64,000 bases of DNA, from NCBI GenBank assembly GCA_020348445.1, contig CP070751.1, forward strand, positions 2,561,767 to 2,625,766. Reading direction: 5' to 3'. This DNA is from Thermoplasmata archaeon (lineage in GTDB: Archaea; Thermoplasmatota; Thermoplasmata; GCA-020350865). The stretch's first letter is position 1. The number at the start of each line of letters is the position of its first letter. The translations under genes were made by a program, and so were the position numbers. Positions 202 through 43,747 of this stretch are shown here, piece by piece. The notes below the pieces were generated by a model. It did no database searches, had not been told where the DNA came from, and saw only the letters and a program-made list of their open reading frames with translations.

Positions 202-2286
202 CTAACTCACGATCTGGAAAAGATTCCTTTTCAAAAAATTTCCAAGATCTTTTTGACAATACCCGCATTCTGTAATTCCCTCCTCTATTGAATTGTGTAA
301 ACAATGTACGTGATAAGGCTTTTTGCATTGAATGCAGGGCATCTCGCAAAGGTCCTTGGTTTCCACAACAGGTTGCGTTAAAAGAGGAAGGCCACATACT
401 GGACATTCTTTTTGACCGCATATTAAACATTTGAACAAGGATGTATTCCATAAAGATAAAGAAAGCCTATTTATTGCATCAACTAAAAACATACTGGGGG
501 CCCAAGATTTCAATATATCAGTAAAAAAGGCTTTTACAGATTCCTTAAGTTCTAGATCACCAATATCGACTAAAATCTCGGGGGGAACAAGTGGGTAGGC
601 CTGTGGGACCTTGATATTTAACTGGATCCGTTTAATTTTGGGTGCTGCTTCCCCTAAAATATCTCCCGTAGACGAGGGAACTGGTATTGTAACCTTATAT
701 CCACCATCCACTACCTCAAAATCTTCAGTAACCAATCTCAGTAGTAATTCTTCGAACTCTCTTCTATATATATTATTTATGACCTGGGAGAGGTTCCGAA
801 GAACATCCATTATCCTCTTTTGCGGTTTCTTGGGCCATTTTTTGATTCCCTCCAGTTCCTCTATATCCAAGCCTTTCAGTTCTTTAGGTAAAGTTACCAC
901 AGGGGGAGAGGGGTATCCTCTTAAATCCATATCGATATCGATAAATTTCGGTCCATATGTTGATATCCTTATAAGGAACCTGTTCTTGCTCAATCTTTCG
1001 GCTCGATACTCCCTTTTGATGACCTCGAATTCACTTTCTATCATGGAATCCTCCACCAGCCTAACCTCTATACCCTGTAGAATATCCACGAGATTAGGTG
1101 TAAACACATCCTCCCAGTGCTTCAATTTCTTGAAGATTTCTTCAATACCGCGGATCCTGATCAACAGATCATCAGTGAAGGTTATGGATGGTTTTTTCGG
1201 GAACTCCTTATAATTTATGGTAACGGGATAGATGTTGTAAATCCCAGCATCCAGACATGAAAGGTAGACTACTACATGATACATTTTATCTCCGACCAAC
1301 TCCAAAGAGAAATTGTTGGAAAGGTCCAGATACTGCGAAATCGCCTCCTCGTTCTCGAAGGAATCTTCAGTGGCTTCTGCATCTGGTATCTCAAAATCGT
1401 AAGATGGCTCAATTTCAAAAAATGTTTCAGGAAGAACCTCCTTTACCTCAAACACCTCTTCTGAATCGATATCTGAGGATTGTGGAGTTACCTCGATAAA
1501 TTCCCCCTCAGGTAGAACCTCGACAACCTCTTCATTTTTCTCTTCACTTGACTTTTTACCATTTTCAATTTCCTTTACCTCGGATTGCTTATCCTCCCTC
1601 TCAGGATCTTCTTCCTTTATTTCTTCAGATGGTTTTATCCTGGATTGTATATTATAAAGCACATCCACAAGTCTTGGAGGGGACTTGGGATCCCAGTTGT
1701 TCAGATTTTCAAGCAATTCATCTAAACCGTCGATATTCACAAGGAGCTCATCAGTAAAGGAGAAGGTTGGCTTTTTTGGGTAATATTCAAAATCTATATT
1801 GACAAAGTACTGCTCACCGTCTGGCGAGTTTAAAAACACCGAGATGTCCCTGATGCTGCCGTCGATTAAAGCCAAAGAGAATTCATCACTTAATTCAAGA
1901 TACTGGTTGTAGATCTCTTCAGGTATCAGGCTGACCTCTACAGCGGTCTCTTTACCAGGCTCGAGATCTAAAGGAACGGGAATGTAGCAATGGGGGCATA
2001 TTCTCTCTGCACCGTCGACACCAGATATGGCATTAAAATACTGCTCGATGCAACCCTTATGGAAGGCCACACCGCATATATGTTCGTAATCGGCACCACC
2101 CCGCCTGCAGATAGCACATTCTTTTGTTTTTTGCACAACAGTTCTTAGTTTGTGCTGGAATCCGGATTCCACGTCCTTTTCTGATGATCGAGAAAATTTA
2201 TTTTTTGGTACCCATATGGGAATCATAGGTATAAGAAATGACAAAGCGCAAATTTTTTTAGATAACAAGGATGGGAAACCTATCAT
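202..2286 (-). CDS. FANCL-like putative E3 ubiquitin ligase: N-terminal RING/PHD-type finger, 4 inactive UBC/RWD-like repeats, C-terminal C4HC3 finger
   Basis: N finger: C57-x2-C60..H69-x-C71-x4-H76-x2-C79..C97-x2-C100. C finger: C628-x2-C631..C651-x2-C654-x4-H659-x2-C662..C674-x2-C677. Four ~95-aa repeats each carry a (Y/F)PxxP motif and a W..(L/I)(V/M)D(V/I/A)(L/I) helix, with no HPN or catalytic Cys. Start at 2286 (GAGG upstream) or 2226. Last gene of the Ub cluster. Confidence 0.8.
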   Translation of the reverse strand: MIGFPSLLSKKICALSFLIPMIPIWVPKNKFSRSSEKDVESGFQHKLRTVVQKTKECAICRRGGADYEHICGVAFHKGCIEQYFNAISGVDGAERICPHCYIPVPLDLEPGKETAVEVSLIPEEIYNQYLELSDEFSLALIDGSIRDISVFLNSPDGEQYFVNIDFEYYPKKPTFSFTDELLVNIDGLDELLENLNNWDPKSPPRLVDVLYNIQSRIKPSEEIKEEDPEREDKQSEVKEIENGKKSSEEKNEEVVEVLPEGEFIEVTPQSSDIDSEEVFEVKEVLPETFFEIEPSYDFEIPDAEATEDSFENEEAISQYLDLSNNFSLELVGDKMYHVVVYLSCLDAGIYNIYPVTINYKEFPKKPSITFTDDLLIRIRGIEEIFKKLKHWEDVFTPNLVDILQGIEVRLVEDSMIESEFEVIKREYRAERLSKNRFLIRISTYGPKFIDIDMDLRGYPSPPVVTLPKELKGLDIEELEGIKKWPKKPQKRIMDVLRNLSQVINNIYRREFEELLLRLVTEDFEVVDGGYKVTIPVPSSTGDILGEAAPKIKRIQLNIKVPQAYPLVPPEILVDIGDLELKESVKAFFTDILKSWAPSMFLVDAINRLSLSLWNTSLFKCLICGQKECPVCGLPLLTQPVVETKDLCEMPCIQCKKPYHVHCLHNSIEEGITECGYCQKDLGNFLKRNLFQIVS

Positions 2287-2400
2287 GAAAGTGCCTCTTC
2301 TTTAATCAAAATAACCGCATAAGCGCAATAAAAAGTTTTCCATTGGATTTTACTGCTGTGTTTTAAATATCAGATATAAATTCTTATCTCAAATAAAAAA

Positions 2401-3567
2401 TCAAAGTTCTATCCCGCAGTTTGCGCAGCTTGAATCACCTGGCATTATGGAATCATATCCACAGAATTCGCATTTAGCGGCTTTCTTGCGCTTTTCCTTC
2501 TTATGATCCTTTTTTAGCTTATCAATTGCCTTGTCCGTGGATTTTTGGTGCGACTCCAGTTTAATGCCCACAGATTGCATATCTTTTTGTATCTTCTGGA
2601 CGAACTTACCCATTTCATCGATGGTCTTCTCCAGATTCTCCACCTTTTCAGTTAAAACGTGTTTCGGCCTCGCGTATTCCTCCTTGTACTCAAGAACCAA
2701 TGGATAGCCCTCAGCAAGAAGCATTGTAGCTTCCACCATACAATCCAATACATCCTGTATGATATGCTCTACCTCAACATTCTCTATCTCGACAAACTCC
2801 GATTTCTCCCCCAACTCAGGTGATTTTAACCTGAAAATCTTCAGATATTCATTGAGTTGAATTCCTTCTTTGAATTTAGATGGATCAAAGACTATTGCCA
2901 CGGCTTTGGGATTCAAGGATTGGTAGCCAGAGTGATTGACCCTGTCCACAGGGGATAAAAACAGCCCATGGCCTGGGTGCGTGTGATACCATCCAACAAT
3001 CCAGTTTTCATCTGTCAGGTCTTGGTTTATCTCGTCGGCTTTGGCATAGTGCTCATTTTGGAATTCTACCTCAACCAAACTACCGTGAACAATGGGAATT
3101 GCATCCATTATCTGTACTTTGGAATCGTCCACATTCCCAACGAGAAATCCCATGCATTCCACCCAATCCTTTCGTGGTGCCTTGGGATTGGAAAACCTCA
3201 TTCCATGCCTAAGCACTTTGTTCAAGGCCCTATAACTGATTAAAACCTTTTCCTTTTCTTTTGGGGGGATCTCCTCCTTTTCCTCTAATGCCCCTTTCAT
3301 AGCAACTTCTTGTATATCAGTTTCAGCCAGTTCATCAAGCTCTGATAGATAATCGTCTATTTCTTTCTCTTTCTTTTCCTCCATTTCCTTGGGCCTTTGC
3401 TCGATTTTCTCTTCTTTCTTTTCCTCGATTTCTTTGGGCTCTTTTTCTATCTCTTCCTCAATTTCCCTGGGTTCTTTTTCTATTTCTTCCCTCAATTGGG
3501 AGGACTCCTTTTTGAGCTTCCTTTTAGATTTCTTTCTTTTGACCTTAATCCTCTTTTTCTTAGGCAT
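2401..3567 (-). CDS. JAB/MPN+ (JAMM) metalloprotease, Rpn11/CSN5-like deubiquitinase with charged N-terminus, coiled coil and C-terminal zinc ribbon
   Basis: VECMGFLVG (catalytic Glu) and WYHTHPGHGLFLSPVD (H-x-H-x7-S-x2-D). C-terminal CEFC..CANC. ATG at 3567 overlaps the E2 stop by 8 nt; the ORF track starts at 3606. Confidence 0.9.
   Translation of the reverse strand: MPKKKRIKVKRKKSKRKLKKESSQLREEIEKEPREIEEEIEKEPKEIEEKKEEKIEQRPKEMEEKKEKEIDDYLSELDELAETDIQEVAMKGALEEKEEIPPKEKEKVLISYRALNKVLRHGMRFSNPKAPRKDWVECMGFLVGNVDDSKVQIMDAIPIVHGSLVEVEFQNEHYAKADEINQDLTDENWIVGWYHTHPGHGLFLSPVDRVNHSGYQSLNPKAVAIVFDPSKFKEGIQLNEYLKIFRLKSPELGEKSEFVEIENVEVEHIIQDVLDCMVEATMLLAEGYPLVLEYKEEYARPKHVLTEKVENLEKTIDEMGKFVQKIQKDMQSVGIKLESHQKSTDKAIDKLKKDHKKEKRKKAAKCEFCGYDSIMPGDSSCANCGIEL
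3421..3486. repeat. 33-bp tandem repeat (2 copies, 5 mismatches) encoding an 11-aa EEIEKEP(R/K)EIE-type unit in the JAB N-terminus
   Basis: Copies at 3421-3453 and 3454-3486 compared directly. Confidence 0.7.
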
Positions 3568-4096
3568 AATTCTGTGTCCACTCCTTGGCCTTATTATCGA
3601 ATTCATCTTTATTGTATTTATACTGGGCTCCAGCCTCTCTGTTTAGGGGATCGTCCGGATTGAAGAAAGGAGGATAGCAATGTATCATGAGTTTCAGACA
3701 TTCAATGAGCATGGACAAATCTTTTGTGGGTGTCCATCCCATGGTTTTACTCTCGGGATCCACCTTCCCTATCCTGTCCGGGTTAATGATATCAAAACAT
3801 ACATTGTCCTTCCAAAAGCTCTGTGTCGGAGGGGCTCTGTTGATGTCTATATTGGGATGCCATATTCTGGTATGGCAGAACACGCCTGGTGGATAGAACG
3901 GGTAATTGTTGAAGGTCTTGATCTCGAAAACGAACCTTCCGTCTTCATAGGGTGTTTCCTCTGCGCCATAAATCGTAACCTTCAAATGACCAACGAAAGA
4001 CGCCCCAGGCCAAAGCTCTATTATAACGTATCTATCATTCTGAAAGCGTTGCAAGGCTTCAAAATAATCCCTCTCTATGCGCTCGAAATCCGCCAA
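3560..4096 (-). CDS. Ubiquitin-conjugating enzyme E2 (UBC fold, catalytically intact)
   Basis: TPYEDGRF..YPFYPP..WHPNI..DNVCFDII..WTP..L..LI..NPDDPLNREAG. HPN at 80-82, Cys100 (codon 3799-3797). TTG start with GGAGG ribosome-binding site. Confidence 0.95.
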   Translation of the reverse strand: MADFERIERDYFEALQRFQNDRYVIIELWPGASFVGHLKVTIYGAEETPYEDGRFVFEIKTFNNYPFYPPGVFCHTRIWHPNIDINRAPPTQSFWKDNVCFDIINPDRIGKVDPESKTMGWTPTKDLSMLIECLKLMIHCYPPFFNPDDPLNREAGAQYKYNKDEFDNKAKEWTQNYA

Positions 4097-4098
4097 TA

Positions 4099-5334
4099 CT
4101 AGCCCTCCATCTCAATAATGAACTCAGCTTGTTCTCGCTTCAGTTTGCCGTTTTCATCGACAGATGTGTATGTGGCTCTGAGTATATCACGATTTTGGAT
4201 TGGTAGATCAGACAATCTACTTCCCATGATGTCTTGGCCGGGAGCTGCGATCACTGATCCATCTATGATCTTGGTGATCAAGACCGTCTCTTTCAAATCC
4301 ACTCCTTCTTTTTTAAGCGATGATAACATATCAGCAAAAGTAGAATCACTCTTCATTTTAAGGCTCAATTTCACCCTTTCCTTTCCGCATACAGCACAAT
4401 TCTCATCCTTGGAGATTTCCACAGGGGTGAATATCCCGTAAGAAGAGCTATATTCAAGATATGAGGGTGACATTATCTCACCAATATTAAGGCCCGAAAG
4501 GCGGTGAAGGATTTTCAGCACCTCATGGGAGACTATAGCCGATATGACCGCATTGACAGTCAATATGGAAGGGATTTTGTTCTCTATTATATTCTCCACC
4601 TCATGGGGCATGAATTCTTCGGCCTTCGTATGCGGGGATTCCTTTGAAAGCCTGGATGCGATTTTCGCAATCATATCAAGTTCCTTGTCTGAATATTCTT
4701 TATGAATACCATGCTCTTTTACGAACTCGTCCTCAGCCTTGAGTATACACTGCTCCCGGCTTCGGGGTTCGCCTGGGATAGAACAAGCAACGTACACCTT
4801 TTCATCTGCTGGAGGTATGGGAAAGAAGCATCGAAGACAGGGAGTTGCATCTTTTAAGAGAGGATCACCTTCCGGGATTATCACCTGGACATTTCCCTTG
4901 AAACCAGTTGCAGCTCCATCAACATATGGCTTGCACAATTCATGTGCCAACCTGTTTAAAGCGAACCTTGCGGAAAAAGAGTCCAGGCCTCCTGCAATGA
5001 GATCCACACCCTCGAATACACTCATTGGTAAATCTTGAAATTTTTGGGTATAGGTTTCGATACTAACATCCGGATTTAGAATCTTCAGTTTTTCTTTGGC
5101 TACCTCAGCTTTGAGTCTGCCTCTATCATTGTCAGTAAAAAGCATCTGCCTCGAAAGGTTCGAGGTCTCGATAGTATCCATGTCTATCAAAATTAGATTC
5201 CCAACACCCACTAAAGCAAGGTTCTTTGCAATCTCACAACCCAATGCCCCTATACCAACGATTAGCACATGGGAAGAAGAAATGACGTCTTGGTCCCAAC
5301 CCTCAAGGGAAAGATGTCTGGCATACCTTGCCAT
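4099..5334 (-). CDS. Eukaryote-type ubiquitin-activating enzyme E1 (UBA3/UBA2-like), with catalytic-Cys insert and C-terminal UFD-like extension
   Basis: GIGALG, D.D.IETSNLSRQ, GGLDSFSARFALN, PCLRC..VACSIPGEPRSREQC (aligns with UBA3 PMCTIASMPRLPEHC), CAVC zinc pair, and ~90 extra C-terminal residues. ATG at 5334 is preferred over the ORF-track start at 5421. Confidence 0.93.
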   Translation of the reverse strand: MARYARHLSLEGWDQDVISSSHVLIVGIGALGCEIAKNLALVGVGNLILIDMDTIETSNLSRQMLFTDNDRGRLKAEVAKEKLKILNPDVSIETYTQKFQDLPMSVFEGVDLIAGGLDSFSARFALNRLAHELCKPYVDGAATGFKGNVQVIIPEGDPLLKDATPCLRCFFPIPPADEKVYVACSIPGEPRSREQCILKAEDEFVKEHGIHKEYSDKELDMIAKIASRLSKESPHTKAEEFMPHEVENIIENKIPSILTVNAVISAIVSHEVLKILHRLSGLNIGEIMSPSYLEYSSSYGIFTPVEISKDENCAVCGKERVKLSLKMKSDSTFADMLSSLKKEGVDLKETVLITKIIDGSVIAAPGQDIMGSRLSDLPIQNRDILRATYTSVDENGKLKREQAEFIIEMEG

Positions 5335-5344
5335 ATCTTTTTTA

Positions 5345-5620
5345 TCACTGGAAAATCCAACCACCCGCTTGTTGAGTAATGATGGTAATGGTATCCTTTT
5401 CAGGTTTGTGGCCCAGATCATTCAACTTCTTTGAAAACACATCATTATCGGAAATGGGCTGGCCCTTATAGATTAGCTGAATCACCAAAGCCTGGTGAAT
5501 CTTATAGGCATTTCTTAGGAGGTTCTTTGTGTCCTTGCATGATGCTTCCTTCGGCACGTTTACAGATTTCGTGCCCTGGTTTGGCGGCAAACCCATCATC
5601 CTAAACTTGTATCTTGGCAT
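5345..5620 (-). CDS. Ubiquitin-like modifier precursor (beta-grasp), diglycine at 86-87 followed by a 4-aa tail (WIFQ)
   Basis: IQLIYKGQPISD matches ubiquitin QRLIFAGKQLED; C-terminus TITIITQQAGG-WIFQ; GGTGA ribosome-binding site; directly upstream of E1. Confidence 0.9.
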   Translation of the reverse strand: MPRYKFRMMGLPPNQGTKSVNVPKEASCKDTKNLLRNAYKIHQALVIQLIYKGQPISDNDVFSKKLNDLGHKPEKDTITIITQQAGGWIFQ

Positions 5621-5728
5621 GGTCTCACCTTGATGTTGAATGGGGATAATGATAGATTAAGGTGTCGGTTGGGTGTTTTTCCCACCTATCTATTATTCTT
5701 TGGATGAGGATAAAACCGATATCTGATC

Positions 5729-5736
5729 GTATAAAA
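5729..5736 (-). promoter_or_regulatory. Possible TATA box for the ubiquitin operon
   Basis: Minus strand TTTTATAC about 110 nt upstream of the Ubl ATG; AT-rich motifs arise by chance. Confidence 0.3.
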
Positions 5737-5754
5737 TAAGCGGTTCTTTTGCCT

Positions 5755-6984: not shown

Positions 6985-8631
6985 TCATTCTCTATTTCTA
7001 TGAACCATTAATTTCTCAACATCCAACTCGAATGCAGAAATGGGACTCGACAGATCAAAATTAGTAATGACCTGTGGGTGCAATTCACCGAAAAATCCCA
7101 AGGTCTCATCCCCAATTTCAACAGATGCACATCTTCCTTCTATGTAACTACCCCTATAAAGCGGATTAATGGTGTAAGGAATCCCCAAAGGCCTTAATAT
7201 CCCCTCAACAAGGGATTTCACCTCAGTAAAACTGGCCTTTGGGTGTATTGAGACACCGGCCAGCTTGTACACATTATGTTCTTCTGGGACAGTTATTCCA
7301 ACTTCAAAAATTTTTTGAGGAAGATCCCTGTGTCTATTGGCCTGTAGAGTTCGTAGGAGGCTAGGAAGCAAGGAAACCCTAAGGCAGCTGTGTTCCTCTG
7401 TTAGAGGGTCGTTGGCCAGGGCAACATCAATTGGCTCTACTCCCATTTTTTCGAACTGCTCCTTTATACTAGAGAGGGTGAGGGTCAGCACCTCGAAGAA
7501 TCCATAGCCCACCATTATCATCCTCAATTTCCTACAAAATTCGATTATCTCCATGGGCCTTCCAAATGTCATAGCCGAGGGCAGCTCAGGCTCAAATTTC
7601 ATGTAGCCATAACTAATGGCGATATCCTCCACCAAGTCGATAGGATGTAGAATATCACCCCTGTATGCTGGTACAAGGGTAGTTATTATATCACCTTTTT
7701 TCTCTGCACCAAAGCGCATCTTTTCAAGATGTGAGGCCGCTTCATCCACAGAAATATTAATGCCCAGCATAGAATTGACATATCCCAAATCAAGGTCCAT
7801 TTTCTCTGGTTCTAAGTTTGGGGTATTGATGCTCTCATCCTGATAAACAACCTCAACCTTCTCAATTTTTCCTCCCCGTTCAGCCAGTGCAGTTGCTATT
7901 ATGTTCAATGCCTGGTTTACTGCATTCATGTCGGTGCCTGTTAGGTCTAAGAAGATATCCTTTGTGTCTTCGGTCACTGTAGTCAGAGTGCCATTGATTA
8001 TGGGTGGAAATGAAAGGACCTCGTTGTTAGAATCTAGGATTATGGGATAGCGAGCAAAACCCTCCAATGTCCAGGCATAGTCCCGGCCTTTTTCGTGTTT
8101 TCTCAGAATCTCCTCCAAATCCATGGTCTCATTCTTTCCGAGGGGTACGAACTGGATGCTCTCAGGATCAACAGCCTTATAGGTGAATGGCGGGGTGATA
8201 TCCCGATAGTCGTGGACCCCTATTGCCATCTTGGCTCTCTTTCTTCCCAAAGTGAGGTGCAGTTTCTCCTGCATATCCATTAAGGATGTAATAAAAAAGT
8301 CTGTCATGGTTACGTCGCGAACAAGGCCGCTTACAATATAGGGTCTCACCTCATTTACAGTTGGATCAACTATGAGCTTGACATCAGACTCACCAATTGG
8401 ATACTTCTTGAGTCCGGTCTCTAGTTCCAGATATCCTCTTAATGCTCTGGCCACTCCTTCCACAGAATATAAATCTGGCCTGTCAGGAAAGAATTCGATA
8501 TCCATCTGCGTGTAATCTATCCTCCCAATATCGGCACCCATCATCGGGATGATTTCCTGGAGCTTCTCCATCTCGATTTTGGTGCCGAGAAGGTCTATTA
8601 GATCGTCGTATTCGATGGATATCACTGGCAT
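6985..8631 (-). CDS. pheT: Phenylalanine--tRNA ligase beta subunit (archaeal type)
   Basis: MPVISI..DRPDLYSVEGVARAL, QEKLH.T.GRKR.K.AIGVHD, VP.YR.DILHPIDLVEDIAI.YGY, LR.SLLPSLL, G.FGELHP. Confidence 0.96.
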   Translation of the reverse strand: MPVISIEYDDLIDLLGTKIEMEKLQEIIPMMGADIGRIDYTQMDIEFFPDRPDLYSVEGVARALRGYLELETGLKKYPIGESDVKLIVDPTVNEVRPYIVSGLVRDVTMTDFFITSLMDMQEKLHLTLGRKRAKMAIGVHDYRDITPPFTYKAVDPESIQFVPLGKNETMDLEEILRKHEKGRDYAWTLEGFARYPIILDSNNEVLSFPPIINGTLTTVTEDTKDIFLDLTGTDMNAVNQALNIIATALAERGGKIEKVEVVYQDESINTPNLEPEKMDLDLGYVNSMLGINISVDEAASHLEKMRFGAEKKGDIITTLVPAYRGDILHPIDLVEDIAISYGYMKFEPELPSAMTFGRPMEIIEFCRKLRMIMVGYGFFEVLTLTLSSIKEQFEKMGVEPIDVALANDPLTEEHSCLRVSLLPSLLRTLQANRHRDLPQKIFEVGITVPEEHNVYKLAGVSIHPKASFTEVKSLVEGILRPLGIPYTINPLYRGSYIEGRCASVEIGDETLGFFGELHPQVITNFDLSSPISAFELDVEKLMVHRNRE

Positions 8632-8796
8632 TAATATCGGATAAGGAAAAGGCTTGATGGTATATTTTTGTTTTGATTAAGGGCTTTAATCTTCAGAAAC
8701 AAGGGAATAACTCCTCATTCCCCCAATTTTTAAATATTTTAAATGTGTTAATCATATAGGTCTTATAAAACCCAAACTCTACGGGGAGGTAATTCT

Positions 8797-11334
8797 ATGG
8801 GACGGATAGGTAAGAAATTATATGGTACACAAGATATCAAGCAAGCAAATAATAATTTTCAAATATGGATTGTAATATTTTTGGTTGTATTAAGTTCAAT
8901 ATCCACTCATTGTTTAATAACAAAATCAAAAGCTGCCCCTATCATAATCGATGAGGACAGCAATGGATATTGGGAGGATTATTTTGAGGATAACAAAGGG
9001 ATCGAAACATGGGATAACATAGAACTGAATATGGGTGAGATTCGACTGATGGATATGTTATATGAGAATTTTACAGGACCTACCGGAACATACCCTGATG
9101 ATAAAAAATGGGATATCATCCATCAAGGTGGAACTTTTGAAATAAACAATAACCGCATGAGATCCTCTGATTCCCCTCCCTATGGAACCTGGCACAATAT
9201 GAAGGTCCAGACAAAATCGGATTTTAAACTGCCACACACCCTCACATGGAGGCAGCAGCTTCAGACCGTTGGAGGTGGTATGTATTATCATTTCCGCGTT
9301 CAAAATGCATCAAGTGGTAATTCATTGTTGGGTATCTATCAGAATTATTTGGGAAATTACGGAGTTTATAATTACTATACCTCAAGTGGAACTTCGATGG
9401 GTTCTTCAGTCTCTGGCTGGCACGATTACAAGGTTACCTTCAATGGTGGTTATTTAGAAATTTATATGGATGATGTATTAAAATTTTCTTATGACTATTT
9501 TGATGTGCAATCGGTTAGGTATCAAATCGGTATGGATATACTAGATCCAGCCTCTGCAACAATTTATACTGATGATATTCAAATCACTTCAGGTATCACA
9601 TCTGGCAATCTAACCTCCACAGAAATCGTAATCCCAAAGGATCAGACATGGGAATCCTTGGAGGTCGATAAACTGGAACCGGTAAATGGAAATACTATTA
9701 ATGTGTCGGTTCTTGATGGCATTACCTTCCTTGCAATTCCGGGATTTGATAATCTCAATGCATCTACTATTAATTTATCCTCAATTGACCCGACAACCTA
9801 TCCCACCATACGGTTAAAAGCCCATTTTACAGGATACGACAATCGCACACCAGTTCTTTATGGGTGGAAGGTTACATGGGCCGATACCATAGCGCCCTCG
9901 CCTCCTTCAGGTTTGACTGTAAATGATCCTTATTCTGGTGATTCACTTAATATCAGTTGGGACCCCAACCCGGAGCCTGATGTTGTATATTATTATTTGG
10001 ATTACAGCACCGACAATGTTACATTTTATAGACTTGCCAATATCGATAAGAACACATTCTCATTCATTCATTCAAACCTCTTAACCGGAATTGAATACTA
10101 TTACAAAATTGCAGCTGTAGATGAGATACCGAATCAGTCACCGTTTTCAGAGGTGAAGAGCACCATCTTAGACATCGATTCAGATGGGGATGGTATTGGC
10201 AATAGAATCGATGACGATATCGATGGCGATACAGTACCAAATTCCATTGATGAATACCCTTATAACGAAAATGAGTGGATTGACTCGGATGGTGACGGTA
10301 TCGCTGACAATGCAGATTTGGACGATGACAATGACAGTTATGATGATACCATCGATGATTTTCCATTCAATTCAAGTGAATGGAAGGATACTGATTGCGA
10401 TGGTATAGGAAATAACGCTGATCTCGATGATGATAACGATGGAATCCCTGATATCTCTGATATGTATCCCTTCAATGATGCAAATGATATTGAGGAGAGA
10501 ATCGATGATCTTTCAGCAGAACTTACCAGCGTAAATGACTCCCTTTTTAATAGGATATCTGAGACCGAAATCAACATATTGAATAGGTTGGATAACCTCA
10601 ACTGGAGCCCTATACTGAACTATATCGAAGGGATGAATGATTCTTTATCTTCAGAGATCCAGGATATACTGAACAGTATAACAGATGACGTAATCGAATT
10701 GAACTCTTCTCTTTCAGATGAATTAACTATGCTCCTTGACAGTCTGAAAAACGATAACGATGCTTTAAGAGCATGGCTTGAATTGGTAACCAACGAATTG
10801 AACTCCCAGTTGACTGCTGCAAGCGATATCCTTTATAACCAATCGAATGAACTGGATGACTCTGATAATAATATTGAAATAATCAACAACACCCTGGCGA
10901 ATCTAACAAAGCTTGATAACATATTATCACAGCTTCTTGATCTTGACAGTGCATTGAAGGATGTTAACGATGATTTAAAGACAAAGGCAGAGGATAAATC
11001 AAAAGAAGAGGAAATAGAGGATAGGATTCGATTATTGGAATTTTTCATTTTCATTGTGCTTTTATTATTGATCGTTAATTTAGTAGTGACATCTATCAGT
11101 TTATTAAGAAAGAAAATCCAAAAAGATACCAAGATTTCTGAGAGTTATAACAAAGTCGAACCTGAGCCTTTAGAGTCCTTTACCCTGGCATCAGAACCTG
11201 AGGAACCTAAAGAGATTATCAAGGAGAATAAAATCAAAGAAGAGGAACCTACACCACAAACACAATCTACACCCCCTTTTCCACCTCCCCCACCTCCTCC
11301 TCCACCACCTCCAAATGAAGAGGTGATAGAATGA
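8797..11334 (+). CDS. Membrane-anchored surface protein: signal, lectin/LamG-like region, FN3, thrombospondin type-3 repeats, coiled coil, TM helix, poly-Pro cytoplasmic tail (paralog 1)
   Basis: N-terminal hydrophobic segment; DTIAPSPPSGL..W..YYYKIAAVD (FN3); repeated DSDGDGIG..D.DDDND; heptads; TM FFIFIVLLLLIVNLVV; 11 consecutive Pro; GGAGGT ribosome-binding site. Confidence 0.85.
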   Translation: MGRIGKKLYGTQDIKQANNNFQIWIVIFLVVLSSISTHCLITKSKAAPIIIDEDSNGYWEDYFEDNKGIETWDNIELNMGEIRLMDMLYENFTGPTGTYPDDKKWDIIHQGGTFEINNNRMRSSDSPPYGTWHNMKVQTKSDFKLPHTLTWRQQLQTVGGGMYYHFRVQNASSGNSLLGIYQNYLGNYGVYNYYTSSGTSMGSSVSGWHDYKVTFNGGYLEIYMDDVLKFSYDYFDVQSVRYQIGMDILDPASATIYTDDIQITSGITSGNLTSTEIVIPKDQTWESLEVDKLEPVNGNTINVSVLDGITFLAIPGFDNLNASTINLSSIDPTTYPTIRLKAHFTGYDNRTPVLYGWKVTWADTIAPSPPSGLTVNDPYSGDSLNISWDPNPEPDVVYYYLDYSTDNVTFYRLANIDKNTFSFIHSNLLTGIEYYYKIAAVDEIPNQSPFSEVKSTILDIDSDGDGIGNRIDDDIDGDTVPNSIDEYPYNENEWIDSDGDGIADNADLDDDNDSYDDTIDDFPFNSSEWKDTDCDGIGNNADLDDDNDGIPDISDMYPFNDANDIEERIDDLSAELTSVNDSLFNRISETEINILNRLDNLNWSPILNYIEGMNDSLSSEIQDILNSITDDVIELNSSLSDELTMLLDSLKNDNDALRAWLELVTNELNSQLTAASDILYNQSNELDDSDNNIEIINNTLANLTKLDNILSQLLDLDSALKDVNDDLKTKAEDKSKEEEIEDRIRLLEFFIFIVLLLLIVNLVVTSISLLRKKIQKDTKISESYNKVEPEPLESFTLASEPEEPKEIIKENKIKEEEPTPQTQSTPPFPPPPPPPPPPPNEEVIE

Positions 11335-42724: not shown

Positions 42725-43747
42725 ATGATGATGCAAAAGAAACAAGTAAGCAGATATTCCAGACATATCATACTTGAGGAGATCGGGGAGATTGGGCAGA
42801 AACTGCTTCGAGAATCCACTGTCGCTGTCGTAGGCTGTGGAGCCCTAGGCAATGTTATTGCCAATCACCTTGTAAGGGCAGGCATTGGAAGACTGAGGAT
42901 AATAGACAGGGATTTAGTTGAGCTCGATAATCTTCAGAGACAGATATTGTTTGACGAGCAGGATGTGGGATCTCCCAAATCCTTAGCTGCACAGAAGAAA
43001 CTGGAGAATGTCAACTCGGAAGTTGAAATTGAAGGTGTGGTAAAGGATTTGAATCCCAACAATGCAGAGAAAATTCTAGGTGATGTGAACCTCATCCTCG
43101 ATGGAACCGACAACATGGAGACCCGATATCTCGTAAATGATGTTTGTGTTAAGAAAAACATTCCATGGGTGTACGGCGGAGCTGTATCAACATATGGAAT
43201 GAGCATGAATATCGTCCCACAAGATACGGCCTGCCTAGTTTGTGCCTTTCCATACCTGCCAAGAGCGGGTTCCCTTCCAACATGCGATACAGTTGGCGTC
43301 CTTAACACTGTGCCGAGCATAATAGCCTCCATTCAAACCACCGAGGCATTGAAGATACTTATGAAAAAAGAGTACAACAAGGAATTGATCGTATATGACG
43401 TCTGGAACCATGATTTTAAAAATATCAAGCTAAAAAGAAATTCTCAATGCAAATGTTGTACAGATAGAAACTTCGAATATCTAAGTGCGAAAAAATCAGA
43501 GCGCACCACGGTATTGTGCGGCCGAAATTCAGTTCAGATAATCCCAGCTTTAGAAAGTGATATCGATCTGCAACACTTGGCGGCCCGCCTTAAAAAAGTG
43601 GGCAACGTGAAGCTAAGTCCTGTTCATCTGGTCTTCGAGACAAAAGAAGCGGCAATCAATATATTCAAGGATGGAAGAGCCATTGTTAAAGGAACAGACA
43701 ACGAAACCCAGGCTCGAACAATATATGCAAAATATATAGGCAACTAA
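42725..43747 (+). CDS. MoeB/ThiF (UbaA-type) adenylyltransferase with C-terminal extension
   Basis: RYSRH..L.EIG..GQ..L, VVGCGALG, DRD.VE..NLQRQ, DGTDN..TRY..ND, CLVC..P.LP...LPTCDTVGV, C.CC, IFKDGRA...GT. Confidence 0.9.
   Translation: MMMQKKQVSRYSRHIILEEIGEIGQKLLRESTVAVVGCGALGNVIANHLVRAGIGRLRIIDRDLVELDNLQRQILFDEQDVGSPKSLAAQKKLENVNSEVEIEGVVKDLNPNNAEKILGDVNLILDGTDNMETRYLVNDVCVKKNIPWVYGGAVSTYGMSMNIVPQDTACLVCAFPYLPRAGSLPTCDTVGVLNTVPSIIASIQTTEALKILMKKEYNKELIVYDVWNHDFKNIKLKRNSQCKCCTDRNFEYLSAKKSERTTVLCGRNSVQIIPALESDIDLQHLAARLKKVGNVKLSPVHLVFETKEAAINIFKDGRAIVKGTDNETQARTIYAKYIGN

What the first reader, a model, noticed from the sequence alone, without database searches (positions are those of the whole stretch)
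202..5620. Complete eukaryote-type ubiquitin cascade (Ubl-E1-E2-JAMM-RING E3) in a Thermoplasmatota-looking genome
Seen: five co-oriented genes; the first four are tightly coupled (Ubl stop to E1 ATG 10 nt, E1 to E2 2 nt, E2/JAB overlap 8 nt) and the E3 starts 114 nt later. Every catalytic motif is intact: GG, E1 Cys (4785-4783), E2 HPN+Cys100, JAMM H-T-H-x7-S-x2-D and C4HC3 fingers. Known: most archaea use only SAMP/UbaA conjugation; E1-E2-RING-Rpn11 cascades are established for Ca. Caldiarchaeum subterraneum and Asgard archaea. Inference: the flanking genes look Thermoplasmatota-like, so this would be a full Ub system outside the lineages where it is characterised. From memory the Ubl resembles Lokiarchaeia Ubls, hinting at transfer from Asgard. 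The genes use host-style GGAGG/GGTGA sites and sampled lines show no obvious GC shift. No ESCRT or proteasome genes are nearby in the window, so the substrate class is open.
Basis: partly seen in the sequence, partly recalled or inferred. Interest (0 to 1): 0.93.

Follow-up and report, generated by a model that had tools for sequence, protein, structure and literature searches.

The report
Ubiquitin-like tagging operon, Thermoplasmata archaeon

Summary
Window 202-5620 (minus strand) holds Ubl, E1, E2, a JAMM protease and a RING protein, with the stated spacings and intact catalytic motifs.

The host is a Thermoplasmata archaeon, not Asgard. The operon lies between housekeeping genes, and relatives of the same genus keep this order.

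The E1 resembles UBA3, and the protease resembles Rpn11. The Ubl is predicted to be a beta-grasp ending in GG plus a variable 0-4-residue tail.

The 694-residue E3 reads RING, four inactive E2-fold (RWD) domains, then a C4HC3-type RING. Its last ~385 residues match FANCL's domain order.

For all five proteins, the nearest relatives outside the phylum are in Helarchaeota or Lokiarchaeota. Those genomes have an E3-E1-E2-JAB operon and an unlinked Ubl. In the E1 tree the Thermoplasmatota clade is sister to that Asgard clade, not nested in it, so the direction of transfer is open.

Two points lower the novelty. UBC-type E2 genes occur in 78 of 301 sampled Thermoplasmatota genomes, although this E1 subfamily occurs in only 3 of 301. 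Earlier notes from this scan had already described the RWD-RING ligase family on other DNA, mostly Asgard.

I found no paper describing this operon or its E3. No biochemistry exists. Verdict: a new variant of a known kind; interest 0.6.

The parts
5345..5620 (-). Ubl precursor, 91 aa. It is a beta-grasp with Gly86-Gly87 (5360-5365) followed by a 4-residue tail WIFQ (5348-5359).
   Evidence: Translation. The AlphaFold model has pLDDT 87.8, and its best Foldseek matches are ubiquitin, ISG15, SUMO2, NEDD8 and Caldiarchaeum Ub. In relatives the tail after GG varies from 0 to 4 residues.
4099..5334 (-). E1 activating enzyme, 411 aa, resembling UBA3. It has an adenylation domain, two CxxC pairs (C166/C169, C313/C316), catalytic Cys184 (4783-4785) and a C-terminal ~80-residue domain that I infer to be a ubiquitin-fold domain.
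   Evidence: Pfam ThiF 1.9e-58. The best PDB matches are Uba1, and UBA3 over residues 17-327. The Cys-domain region matches only UBA3, with Cys184 on its catalytic Cys.
3560..4096 (-). E2 conjugating enzyme, 178 aa, TTG start, with HPN80-82 and Cys100 (3797-3799). Family-specific loops flank the Cys.
   Evidence: Pfam UQ_con 2.6e-22. PDB UBE2T/UBE2D at about 3e-16. HPN is invariant and the Cys nearly invariant in 16 homologues.
2401..3567 (-). Rpn11-like JAMM/MPN+ metalloprotease, 388 aa. It has a Lys/Glu-rich N-terminal tail, an MPN core with H195-T-H-x7-S-x2-D208 (2944-2985), a coiled coil and a C-terminal CxxC...CxxC zinc ribbon.
   Evidence: Pfam JAB 8.7e-15. PDB Rpn11 4e-15, Caldiarchaeum Rpn11-like 8e-13, CSN5 1e-9. 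Motif located.
202..2286 (-). E3 candidate, 694 aa. In order: a conserved hydrophobic N-terminal motif; RING1 (res 57-100; 1987-2118); four inactive UBC/RWD-fold domains (res 121-613; 448-1926), with a disordered acidic linker at res 224-307; then RING2 with a C4HC3 core and 12 conserved Cys/His (res 620-677; 256-429).
   Evidence: Alignment of 21 homologues. Model m8e01ad83eec3. Foldseek gives FANCL first at 2.3e-7. VIA gives RWD/UBC Z about 10 and the FANCL double RWD Z 8.7. Pfam RING_2 hits 20/21 members, RWD 19/21 and UQ_con 16/21.
5621..5754 (-). Intergenic region upstream of the Ubl. It holds an AT-rich TATA-like stretch (about 5729-5739) and GGTGA 6 nt before the ATG. I propose it as the operon promoter and leader by inference only.
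   Evidence: Sequence read. No transcript data were available.

Best explanation
This is a genuine, self-contained ubiquitin-like conjugation operon in a Thermoplasmata archaeon. The proposed mechanism has five steps, all inferred.

1. The Ubl is made as a precursor. The Rpn11-like JAMM protease trims the short tail (WIFQ here) to expose Gly-Gly, as the Caldiarchaeum Rpn11 homologue does with pro-ubiquitin.
2. The UBA3-like E1 adenylates the Ubl and takes it as a thioester on Cys184.
3. The Ubl passes to Cys100 of the canonical UBC-fold E2.
4. The 694-residue RING-(RWD)4-RING protein acts as the E3. A RING, most likely the ancestral C-terminal one, binds E2~Ubl. The array of four dead E2-fold domains holds substrate and/or Ubl, as the ELF and double-RWD domains of FANCL do.
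5. The same JAMM protease can remove the tag.

What is shown: the genes, the intact motifs, the predicted folds, the conservation, the synteny and the co-occurrence of core and E3.

What is not shown: every chemical step and the substrates.

On origin, all five proteins belong to one system type shared with Helarchaeota and Lokiarchaeota. The set has crossed between the two phyla as a whole. I think Asgard to Thermoplasmatota is the more likely direction, but this is not proven.
For: Catalytic residues are intact and the genes are tightly coupled.

The E1 Cys domain and both Zn pairs align with UBA3. The E2 matches UBE2T/UBE2D, and its HPN and Cys are conserved. The JAB is Rpn11-type. The Ubl is a beta-grasp with GG and a variable tail; one relative ends exactly at GG.

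The E3 has two RING-type fingers and four RWD/UBC folds with a FANCL-like order.

Synteny PheT-KaiC-Ubl-E1-E2-JAB-E3 is kept in the genus, and uppS lies beside the E3.

Core and E3 co-occur. Both are found in 4/4 genomes of the genus, and in G042 and G053 of other classes, where the E3 is unlinked. No E3 relative beyond a weak RING match turned up in 36 other genomes of the class, and this E1 type was not found in 298 other genomes of the phylum.

Asgard sister operons read E3-E1-E2-JAB with an unlinked Ubl. Identities to the window's proteins are Ubl 40%, E1 46%, E2 54%, JAB 42% and E3 27%.

In the E1 tree the Thermoplasmatota clade has 100% SH-aLRT support and is sister to the Asgard ~415-aa clade.
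Against: There are no biochemical or expression data, and the host is uncultured.

The Ubl and the RINGs fall below Pfam's curated cut-offs as single sequences.

In one relative (CP070739.1) the E1 is split by a ~2.9-kb insertion and the E3 lies about 185 kb away. The system can therefore decay or work in trans.

The E3 may have its own promoter: the gap before it is 114 nt and AT-rich.

Which RING binds the E2 is unknown.

The E1 tree is a quick search, rooted only on another Asgard E1 family, and contains no eukaryotic or TACK sequences.
Confidence: 0.8

Rival explanations
1. It is a conflict or antiviral Ubl system, like the bacterial Bil (Ubl/E1/E2/JAB) or CBASS Cap2/Cap3 modules. In that reading it tags viral or host proteins during infection rather than serving housekeeping regulation.
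For: Distribution in the phylum is patchy and the set appears to move between phyla as a cassette. A variable accessory gene sits between JAB and E3 in two relatives. An earlier scan note links a different Ubl set in Poseidoniales to Cas10/CARF genes (untested here).
Against: PADLOC models match only the Rossmann part of the E1 (best 74.7 bits, against 197.9 bits for the Pfam ThiF model). They give nothing for E2, Ubl or E3 and only a weak JAB hit. The operon sits among housekeeping genes (PheT, uppS, purD), with no neighbouring defence genes in the stretches read and no GC shift. The E2 is a canonical UBC rather than a prokaryotic E2 family.
Confidence: 0.1
2. It is a decaying or non-conjugating relic. 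The genes are kept, but the pathway no longer transfers the Ubl to targets in this genome.
For: In the relative CP070739.1 the E1 is interrupted and the E3 is displaced. The genome has a second Ubl-E2/JAB/Ub/E1 cluster that could carry the function.
Against: In this genome all five reading frames are open and every catalytic residue is present. Within the genus the proteins are 75-92% identical for Ubl, E1 and E2, which points to purifying selection.
Confidence: 0.05
3. It is a SAMP/UbaA-type or sulfur-carrier system, with a MoaD/ThiS-like carrier and a MoeB-like E1, mislabelled as ubiquitin-type.
For: The E1 adenylation domain also matches the ThiF/MoeB/UbaA models.
Against: All NCBIfam ThiF/MoeB/UbaA scores are far below their cut-offs; UbaA scores 117 against a cut-off of 450. 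The E1 carries a UBA3-type Cys domain. A UBC E2, a RING protein and an Rpn11-type protease are present. No MoaE, ThiG or rhodanese genes were seen in the adjacent stretches read.
Confidence: 0.03
4. It is an assembly chimera or Asgard contamination inside a Thermoplasmata contig.
For: The nearest outside relatives are Asgard. Read coverage could not be checked.
Against: The same operon lies next to the same PheT and KaiC genes on independent assemblies of four relatives, and the E3 lies next to uppS in a closed 3.2-Mb relative. GC is uniform. Identity to Asgard proteins is only 27-54%.
Confidence: 0.02

Closest known systems
Caldiarchaeum subterraneum ubiquitylation operon (Ub, E2, E1, small RING finger protein, Rpn11 homologue; PMC3082918, PMC5654768, PMC6043591)
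   Same: It has the same five functional roles in one locus. These are a pro-Ubl with a C-terminal extension after GG, a single-chain E1 with a catalytic Cys, a UBC E2, a RING-type E3 and an Rpn11-like JAMM protease. That protease processes the precursor in Caldiarchaeum (read). The Caldiarchaeum Ub and Rpn11 homologue appear among the structure and sequence matches.
   Different: The E3 here is a 694-residue RING-(RWD)4-RING protein, not a small RING finger protein. The Ubl is only about 13-20% identical to ubiquitin-family structures. The gene order differs. The host is Thermoplasmata, not Caldarchaeales or Asgard. Nothing has been reconstituted.
Helarchaeota/Lokiarchaeota E3(3xRWD-RING)-E1-E2-JAB operons
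   Same: All five proteins are the closest relatives outside the phylum. The E3's residues 300-682 align with the whole Asgard protein (E 2e-39 and 7e-42). The JAB in both has a Lys/Glu-rich N-terminal tail. The Ubl in both ends in QAGG.
   Different: In Asgard the E3 comes first and the Ubl is unlinked. The Asgard E3 lacks the N-terminal RING and has three RWD folds. Here the first RWD is duplicated, an acidic linker is inserted, and all five genes lie in one co-oriented locus.
FANCL (Fanconi anaemia E3: ELF, double RWD, C4HC3 RING; PDB 3k1l, 3zqs, 7kzp_L)
   Same: The domain order of residues ~311-694 is one UBC-like fold, then a double RWD, then a C-terminal C4HC3-type RING. FANCL is the best Foldseek match (2.3e-7 over 419 columns). 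The double RWD scores Z 8.7 over 172 residues. FANCL clusters appear among the Atlas look-alikes.
   Different: There is no significant sequence match to the FANCL Pfam families; FANCL_C is weak in 3 of 21 members. The archaeal protein has an extra N-terminal RING, an extra RWD and four additional conserved Zn ligands. No Fanconi core complex is involved. Shared ancestry is not shown, and RNF25 and Listerin (also RWD plus RING) are alternative look-alikes.
SAMP/UbaA conjugation of Haloferax and other archaea
   Same: It uses a beta-grasp modifier ending in GG, activated by a ThiF-family E1 and removed by a JAMM protease.
   Different: SAMPylation has no E2 and no RING E3. Its E1 lacks the UBA3-type Cys domain, and its desampylase is a minimal JAMM. 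The UbaA and desampylase models score far below cut-off here.

Membership tests
Archaeal eukaryote-type ubiquitylation operon (Caldiarchaeum/Asgard type) | Small beta-grasp modifier with a C-terminal Gly-Gly, often made as a precursor | tested here: met
   GG at residues 86-87 plus a 4-residue tail. The model has pLDDT 87.8 and its best matches are ubiquitin, SUMO, NEDD8 and Caldiarchaeum Ub. The tail varies from 0 to 4 residues among relatives.
Archaeal eukaryote-type ubiquitylation operon (Caldiarchaeum/Asgard type) | E1 with an adenylation domain and a catalytic-Cys domain | tested here: met
   ThiF 1.9e-58. UBA3 aligns over residues 17-327. Cys184 aligns with the UBA3 catalytic Cys, and both CxxC pairs align.
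Archaeal eukaryote-type ubiquitylation operon (Caldiarchaeum/Asgard type) | UBC-fold E2 with HPN and an active-site Cys | tested here: met
   UQ_con 79.4 bits against a cut-off of 27. HPN80 and Cys100 are present and conserved in 16 homologues.
Archaeal eukaryote-type ubiquitylation operon (Caldiarchaeum/Asgard type) | RING-type E3 | tested here: met
   Eight conserved Zn ligands lie at residues 57-100 and twelve at 620-677. zf-RING_2 hits 20 of 21 family members, but below the curated cut-off in the window's own protein. The structure matches RING E3s. Ligase activity was not tested.
Archaeal eukaryote-type ubiquitylation operon (Caldiarchaeum/Asgard type) | Rpn11-like JAMM/MPN+ protease with an intact metal site | tested here: met
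   JAB 55 bits against a cut-off of 22.5. HTH-x7-S-x2-D is present. The best PDB matches are Rpn11 and the Caldiarchaeum Rpn11-like protein.
Archaeal eukaryote-type ubiquitylation operon (Caldiarchaeum/Asgard type) | E1~Ubl and E2~Ubl thioesters, and E3-dependent isopeptide formation | not testable with these tools
   Needs recombinant proteins.
FANCL family | Domain order: UBC-like ELF, double RWD, C-terminal C4HC3 RING | tested here: met
   Residues ~311-694 have this order. Foldseek gives 7kzp_L 2.3e-7 and 3k1l_B 8.8e-4. VIA gives 3zqs_A Z 8.7 and 7kzp_L Z 9.8. The C4HC3 core is C628, C631, C651, C654, H659, C662, C674, C677.
FANCL family | Sequence membership in Pfam FANCL_C or FANCL_d1-d3 | tested here: not met
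   Only FANCL_C appears, in 3 of 21 members, at best E 0.037 and below cut-off. The protein is therefore FANCL-shaped but is not filed as FANCL.
FANCL family | Acts with UBE2T within a Fanconi core complex on FANCD2/FANCI | not testable with these tools
   I did not search for Fanconi components. UBE2T is marginally the best PDB match of the E2 (62.7 bits against 61 for UBE2D), which is not discriminating.
SAMP/UbaA system | UbaA-type E1 equivalog acting without an E2 | tested here: not met
   NF047750 scores 117 bits against a cut-off of 450. An E2 and a RING protein are present.
Bacterial CBASS Cap2/Cap3 or other catalogued defence Ubl modules | Matches to the defence-system E1-E2 fusion and JAB models | tested here: not met
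   The PADLOC E1-E2 models match only E1 residues 15-133. The E2, E3 and Ubl have no hit, and the JAB is weak at 8.4e-5. PADLOC 2.0.0 may lack the Bil models.

The most novel reading that the evidence does not exclude
The RWD-array-plus-RING ligase may be a true archaeal relative of eukaryotic FANCL, and perhaps of Listerin and RNF25. If so, this class of E3, so far treated as a eukaryotic radiation of dead E2 folds (PMC6601020), arose in archaea as the dedicated ligase of one Ubl/E1/E2/Rpn11 system. The whole five-part system then moved between Asgard and Thermoplasmatota. The Thermoplasmata operon would be its most compact version, with all five genes in one locus, and so the natural set to reconstitute.
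Probability: 0.3. Interest if true: 0.8.

Novelty: new variant of a known kind. Interest (0 to 1): 0.6.

Why it matters
Ubiquitin-type cascades with an E2 and a RING E3 have been tested in only one archaeon, Caldiarchaeum. They are otherwise discussed mainly for Asgard archaea, in the context of the origin of eukaryotes.

This operon shows that a complete cascade of this kind is kept, with intact catalytic residues and as one locus, in a distant phylum. That includes a large multi-domain ligase. The cascade has evidently crossed between phyla as a set, so it appears to be useful outside the Asgard setting.

The ligase puts tandem dead-E2 (RWD) domains next to a C4HC3 RING. In the one paper I found that addresses the question (PMC6601020), that layout is treated as a eukaryotic invention.

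Because all five genes sit together and are short, they form a practical set for in vitro reconstitution and for asking what the RWD array binds.

Tried and rejected
- Complex prediction of E3 residues 311-694 with the E2 gave no verdict: score 0.05 against a mark of 0.32. It counts neither for nor against binding.
Reads were therefore never laid on the window.
- The sigma-70 promoter and terminator scan found no more sites than shuffled sequence and does not suit archaea. I read the intergenic regions by eye instead.
- tblastn found no Ubl next to the Asgard sister operons. A profile search of four Helarchaeota genomes then found the Ubl unlinked.
- The 280-residue zinc-ribbon membrane protein that lies between JAB and E3 in two relatives has no match in this genome. 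It is not a core part.
- KaiC, upstream of the Ubl, is syntenic only within the genus and was not found beside the operon in the other two lineages. I do not count it as part of the system.
- My second literature query was too loose and returned only eukaryotic papers.
- I considered filing the E3 as FANCL and rejected that, because sequence-level membership is not met.

Full report
**What is there.**
Five co-oriented minus-strand genes fill window 202-5620. They encode:
- a 91-residue Ubl ending QQAGG-WIFQ;
- a 411-residue E1;
- a 178-residue E2, which starts with TTG;
- a 388-residue JAMM protease;
- a 694-residue two-finger protein, the E3 candidate.

The spacings are 10 nt, 2 nt, an 8-nt overlap and 114 nt. 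E1 Cys184 lies at 4785-4783. The E2 has HPN80 and Cys100. The JAMM motif is H195-T-H-x7-S-x2-D208. Pfam gives ThiF 1.9e-58, UQ_con 2.6e-22 and JAB 8.7e-15. The Ubl and the RING are weak as single sequences. GC content across the operon is like the rest of the window.

**The host and the contig.**
The window lies in a 5.16-Mb single-contig genome. PheT lies 1.3 kb from the operon. Its closest named relatives are 'Thermoplasmata archaeon' at 77-90% identity, then Methanomassiliicoccus and Methanomassiliicoccales at 52-57%. uppS converges on the E3, with purD beyond it.

Independent assemblies of the same genus keep the gene order. One contig reads PheT-KaiC-Ubl-E1-E2-JAB-E3, and in a closed 3.2-Mb genome (CP070739.1) the E3 lies next to uppS. 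A chimera or Asgard contamination is therefore very unlikely.

**The parts.**
- *E1.* It is of the eukaryotic kind. Its best solved relatives are Uba1, and UBA3 over residues 17-327, ahead of MoeB and ThiF. The segment that carries the catalytic Cys matches only UBA3. Cys184 falls on the UBA3 catalytic Cys, and both CxxC pairs align. The UbaA, MoeB and ThiF equivalog models score far below their cut-offs.
- *E2.* It matches UBE2T and UBE2D at about 3e-16. HPN is invariant and the Cys nearly invariant in 16 homologues.
- *Protease.* It is Rpn11-type: Rpn11 4e-15, the Caldiarchaeum Rpn11 homologue 8e-13, CSN5 1e-9.
- *Ubl.* It has no sequence match among solved structures. Its model, at pLDDT 87.8, is a beta-grasp whose best matches are ubiquitin, ISG15, SUMO2, NEDD8 and Caldiarchaeum ubiquitin. 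Among seven relatives the residues after GG are WIFQ, WIRV, WIRA, WIFK, R, I or nothing. That pattern is what a removable pro-peptide would show, as in Caldiarchaeum (PMC5654768, read).

**The ligase.**
Twenty further homologues at 41-62% identity were aligned with the window's protein. Only a few carry organism names: Thermoplasmata or Methanomassiliicoccales MAGs. The conserved features are:
- a hydrophobic N-terminal motif;
- an eight-ligand finger, C-x2-C-x8-H-x-C-x4-H-x2-C-x17-C-x2-C;
- four 'YP..P' domains that lack both HPN and Cys;
- a C-terminal finger with a C4HC3 core plus four more Cys/His.

The model (pLDDT 70.6) shows four UBC/RWD folds and a disordered acidic linker at 224-307. 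FANCL is the best Foldseek match (7kzp_L, 2.3e-7 over 419 columns), followed by BRE and the Knl1 double RWD. VIA-align gives Z of about 10 for single RWD/UBC domains and Z 8.7 for the FANCL double RWD. Across the family, Pfam RING_2, RWD and UQ_con hit 20, 19 and 16 of 21 members. FANCL_C is only faint. The Atlas look-alikes are Promethearchaeota RWD proteins first, then eukaryotic RWD-RING proteins, FANCL and Listerin.

I therefore call the protein FANCL-shaped. I do not call it a FANCL family member.

**Relatives and origin.**
After its own clade (62-78% identity), the E1 has relatives at 51-55%. Two of these lie in Thermoplasmatota genomes of other classes, G042 and G053. Next come Helarchaeota, Lokiarchaeota and Hodarchaeota at 43-49%.

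G042 and G053 have Ubl-E1-E2-JAB in the same order. Each also has an unlinked RING-(RWD)3-RING protein.

Lokiarchaeota and Helarchaeota loci read E3-E1-E2-JAB, with a ~430-450-residue E3. That Asgard E3 aligns along its whole length with residues 300-682 of the window's E3 (E 2e-39 and 7e-42). The window's first RWD is a duplicate of the next one. Four Helarchaeota genomes encode an unlinked Ubl homologue ending TQAGG (E 1e-19 to 1e-21).

In a quick IQ-TREE analysis, the Thermoplasmatota E1s form one clade (100% SH-aLRT, long stem). That clade is sister to the Asgard ~415-residue clade when rooted on a second, 527-residue Asgard E1 family. Kinship with Asgard is therefore clear for all five parts. 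The direction of transfer is not settled. The patchy distribution in Thermoplasmatota makes an Asgard source the more economical reading.

**How common it is.**
This E1 subfamily was found in 3 of 301 evenly sampled genomes of the phylum. The E2 and the E3 were found in 4 of 4 other genomes of the genus but not in the sister family's one genome.

UBC-type E2 genes as such are far from rare. Pfam UQ_con scores over its cut-off in 78 of 301 sampled Thermoplasmatota genomes, spread over 48 of 138 genera.

This genome itself has a second cluster about 410 kb away. It holds a Ubl-E2 fusion, a membrane JAB, an 83-residue ubiquitin-family protein and a ThiF E1.

**Prior record.**
Public records already name close homologues automatically, for example 'ubiquitin-conjugating enzyme E2 [Thermoplasmata archaeon]'. 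In the searchable literature I found only a passing mention of a 'Ca. Thermoplasmatota E2' clade. I found no paper on an archaeal RWD-RING ligase. One paper treats tandem RWDs and FANCL as eukaryotic radiations and cites a single Asgard RWD-like sequence (PMC6601020).

Earlier notes of this scan had already described the FANCL-shaped ligase family, mostly in Asgard genomes. They had also described E2-type cassettes in other archaeal phyla. Other first-stage readings exist for this same stretch.

**Rivals.**
- A defence role is possible but has little support. PADLOC matches only the generic E1 core, and the neighbours are housekeeping genes.
- A sulfur-carrier reading fails on the E1's Cys domain and the presence of an E2, a RING protein and an Rpn11-type protease.
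- Decay is seen in one relative, whose E1 is split by a ~2.9-kb insertion. It is not seen here.

**Verdict.**
The finding is a new variant of a known kind. Its weight lies in two things: the ligase architecture, and a whole cascade shared across two phyla. The mere presence of ubiquitin-type genes in Thermoplasmatota is not what makes it notable.

Noticed in passing
outside the window: G000:C1:2148500-2158500 (locus L114), about 410 kb before the window: This is a second ubiquitin-like cluster in the same genome. It holds a 157-aa zinc-ribbon membrane protein, a 229-aa Ubl-E2 fusion, a 428-aa JAB protein with a membrane segment and Ig-like domains, an 83-aa protein that passes Pfam's ubiquitin cut-off, a 322-aa ThiF E1, and a second ThiF on the other strand. 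No RING was seen. Its E2 matches Pfam over the same span (positions ~46-126) as most of the phylum's E2 hits, so it may be the type common in the phylum.
   Followed up: partly
locus L026 (CP070739.1, Methanomassiliicoccales archaeon bin396), 7001-11285: In this closed 3.2-Mb genome of the same genus, the E1 gene is split by a ~2.9-kb insertion. The insertion carries small winged-helix-like genes and a repeat-rich surface protein, and about 50 E1 codons are duplicated at the joint. The E3 sits about 185 kb away, next to uppS. Some bases there are withheld as N.
   Followed up: partly
loci L011 3857-4699 and L013 930-1787: Two relatives carry an extra ~280-residue gene between JAB and E3. It encodes an N-terminal zinc ribbon followed by several membrane helices. 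The gene is absent from the operon of this genome and of G004, and it has no match anywhere in this genome.
   Followed up: partly
window 42755-43456 (+): This is another ThiF-family gene and the best ThiF match in the genome (250 bits over the full model). It is probably the MoeB/UbaA-type enzyme. The genome has five ThiF-family genes in all.
   Followed up: no
window 2401-3567 (N-terminal 100 residues of JAB) and L032 9021-10439: The Rpn11-like protease has a long Lys/Glu-rich N-terminal tail both here and in the Helarchaeota counterpart. The G042 version has a Lys/Pro-rich tail. No function is known; the tail could be an acceptor of the tag or a nucleic-acid or ribosome contact.
   Followed up: no
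loci L034 and L063 (DATKTP01, 'Candidatus Deferrimicrobium sp.' MAG): A MAG labelled as a bacterium carries two Asgard-type E1 genes, one of them 50% identical to the window's E1. Asgard contigs have probably been binned into it by mistake.
   Followed up: no
window 8797-11334 (+): This 845-residue secreted or membrane protein has calcium-binding-like Asp-rich repeats, a fibronectin-like segment, a coiled-coil part, a membrane helix and a 15-proline run near the C-terminus.
   Followed up: no
loci L020 2819-4000 and L032 11418-12602: In the Asgard sister loci, a ~393-residue VWA/Ssl1-like protein ending in a RING-like finger and a small second ThiF gene lie near the E3-E1-E2-JAB operon. An Arf/Roc-type GTPase is also adjacent in the Lokiarchaeota locus.
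   Followed up: no
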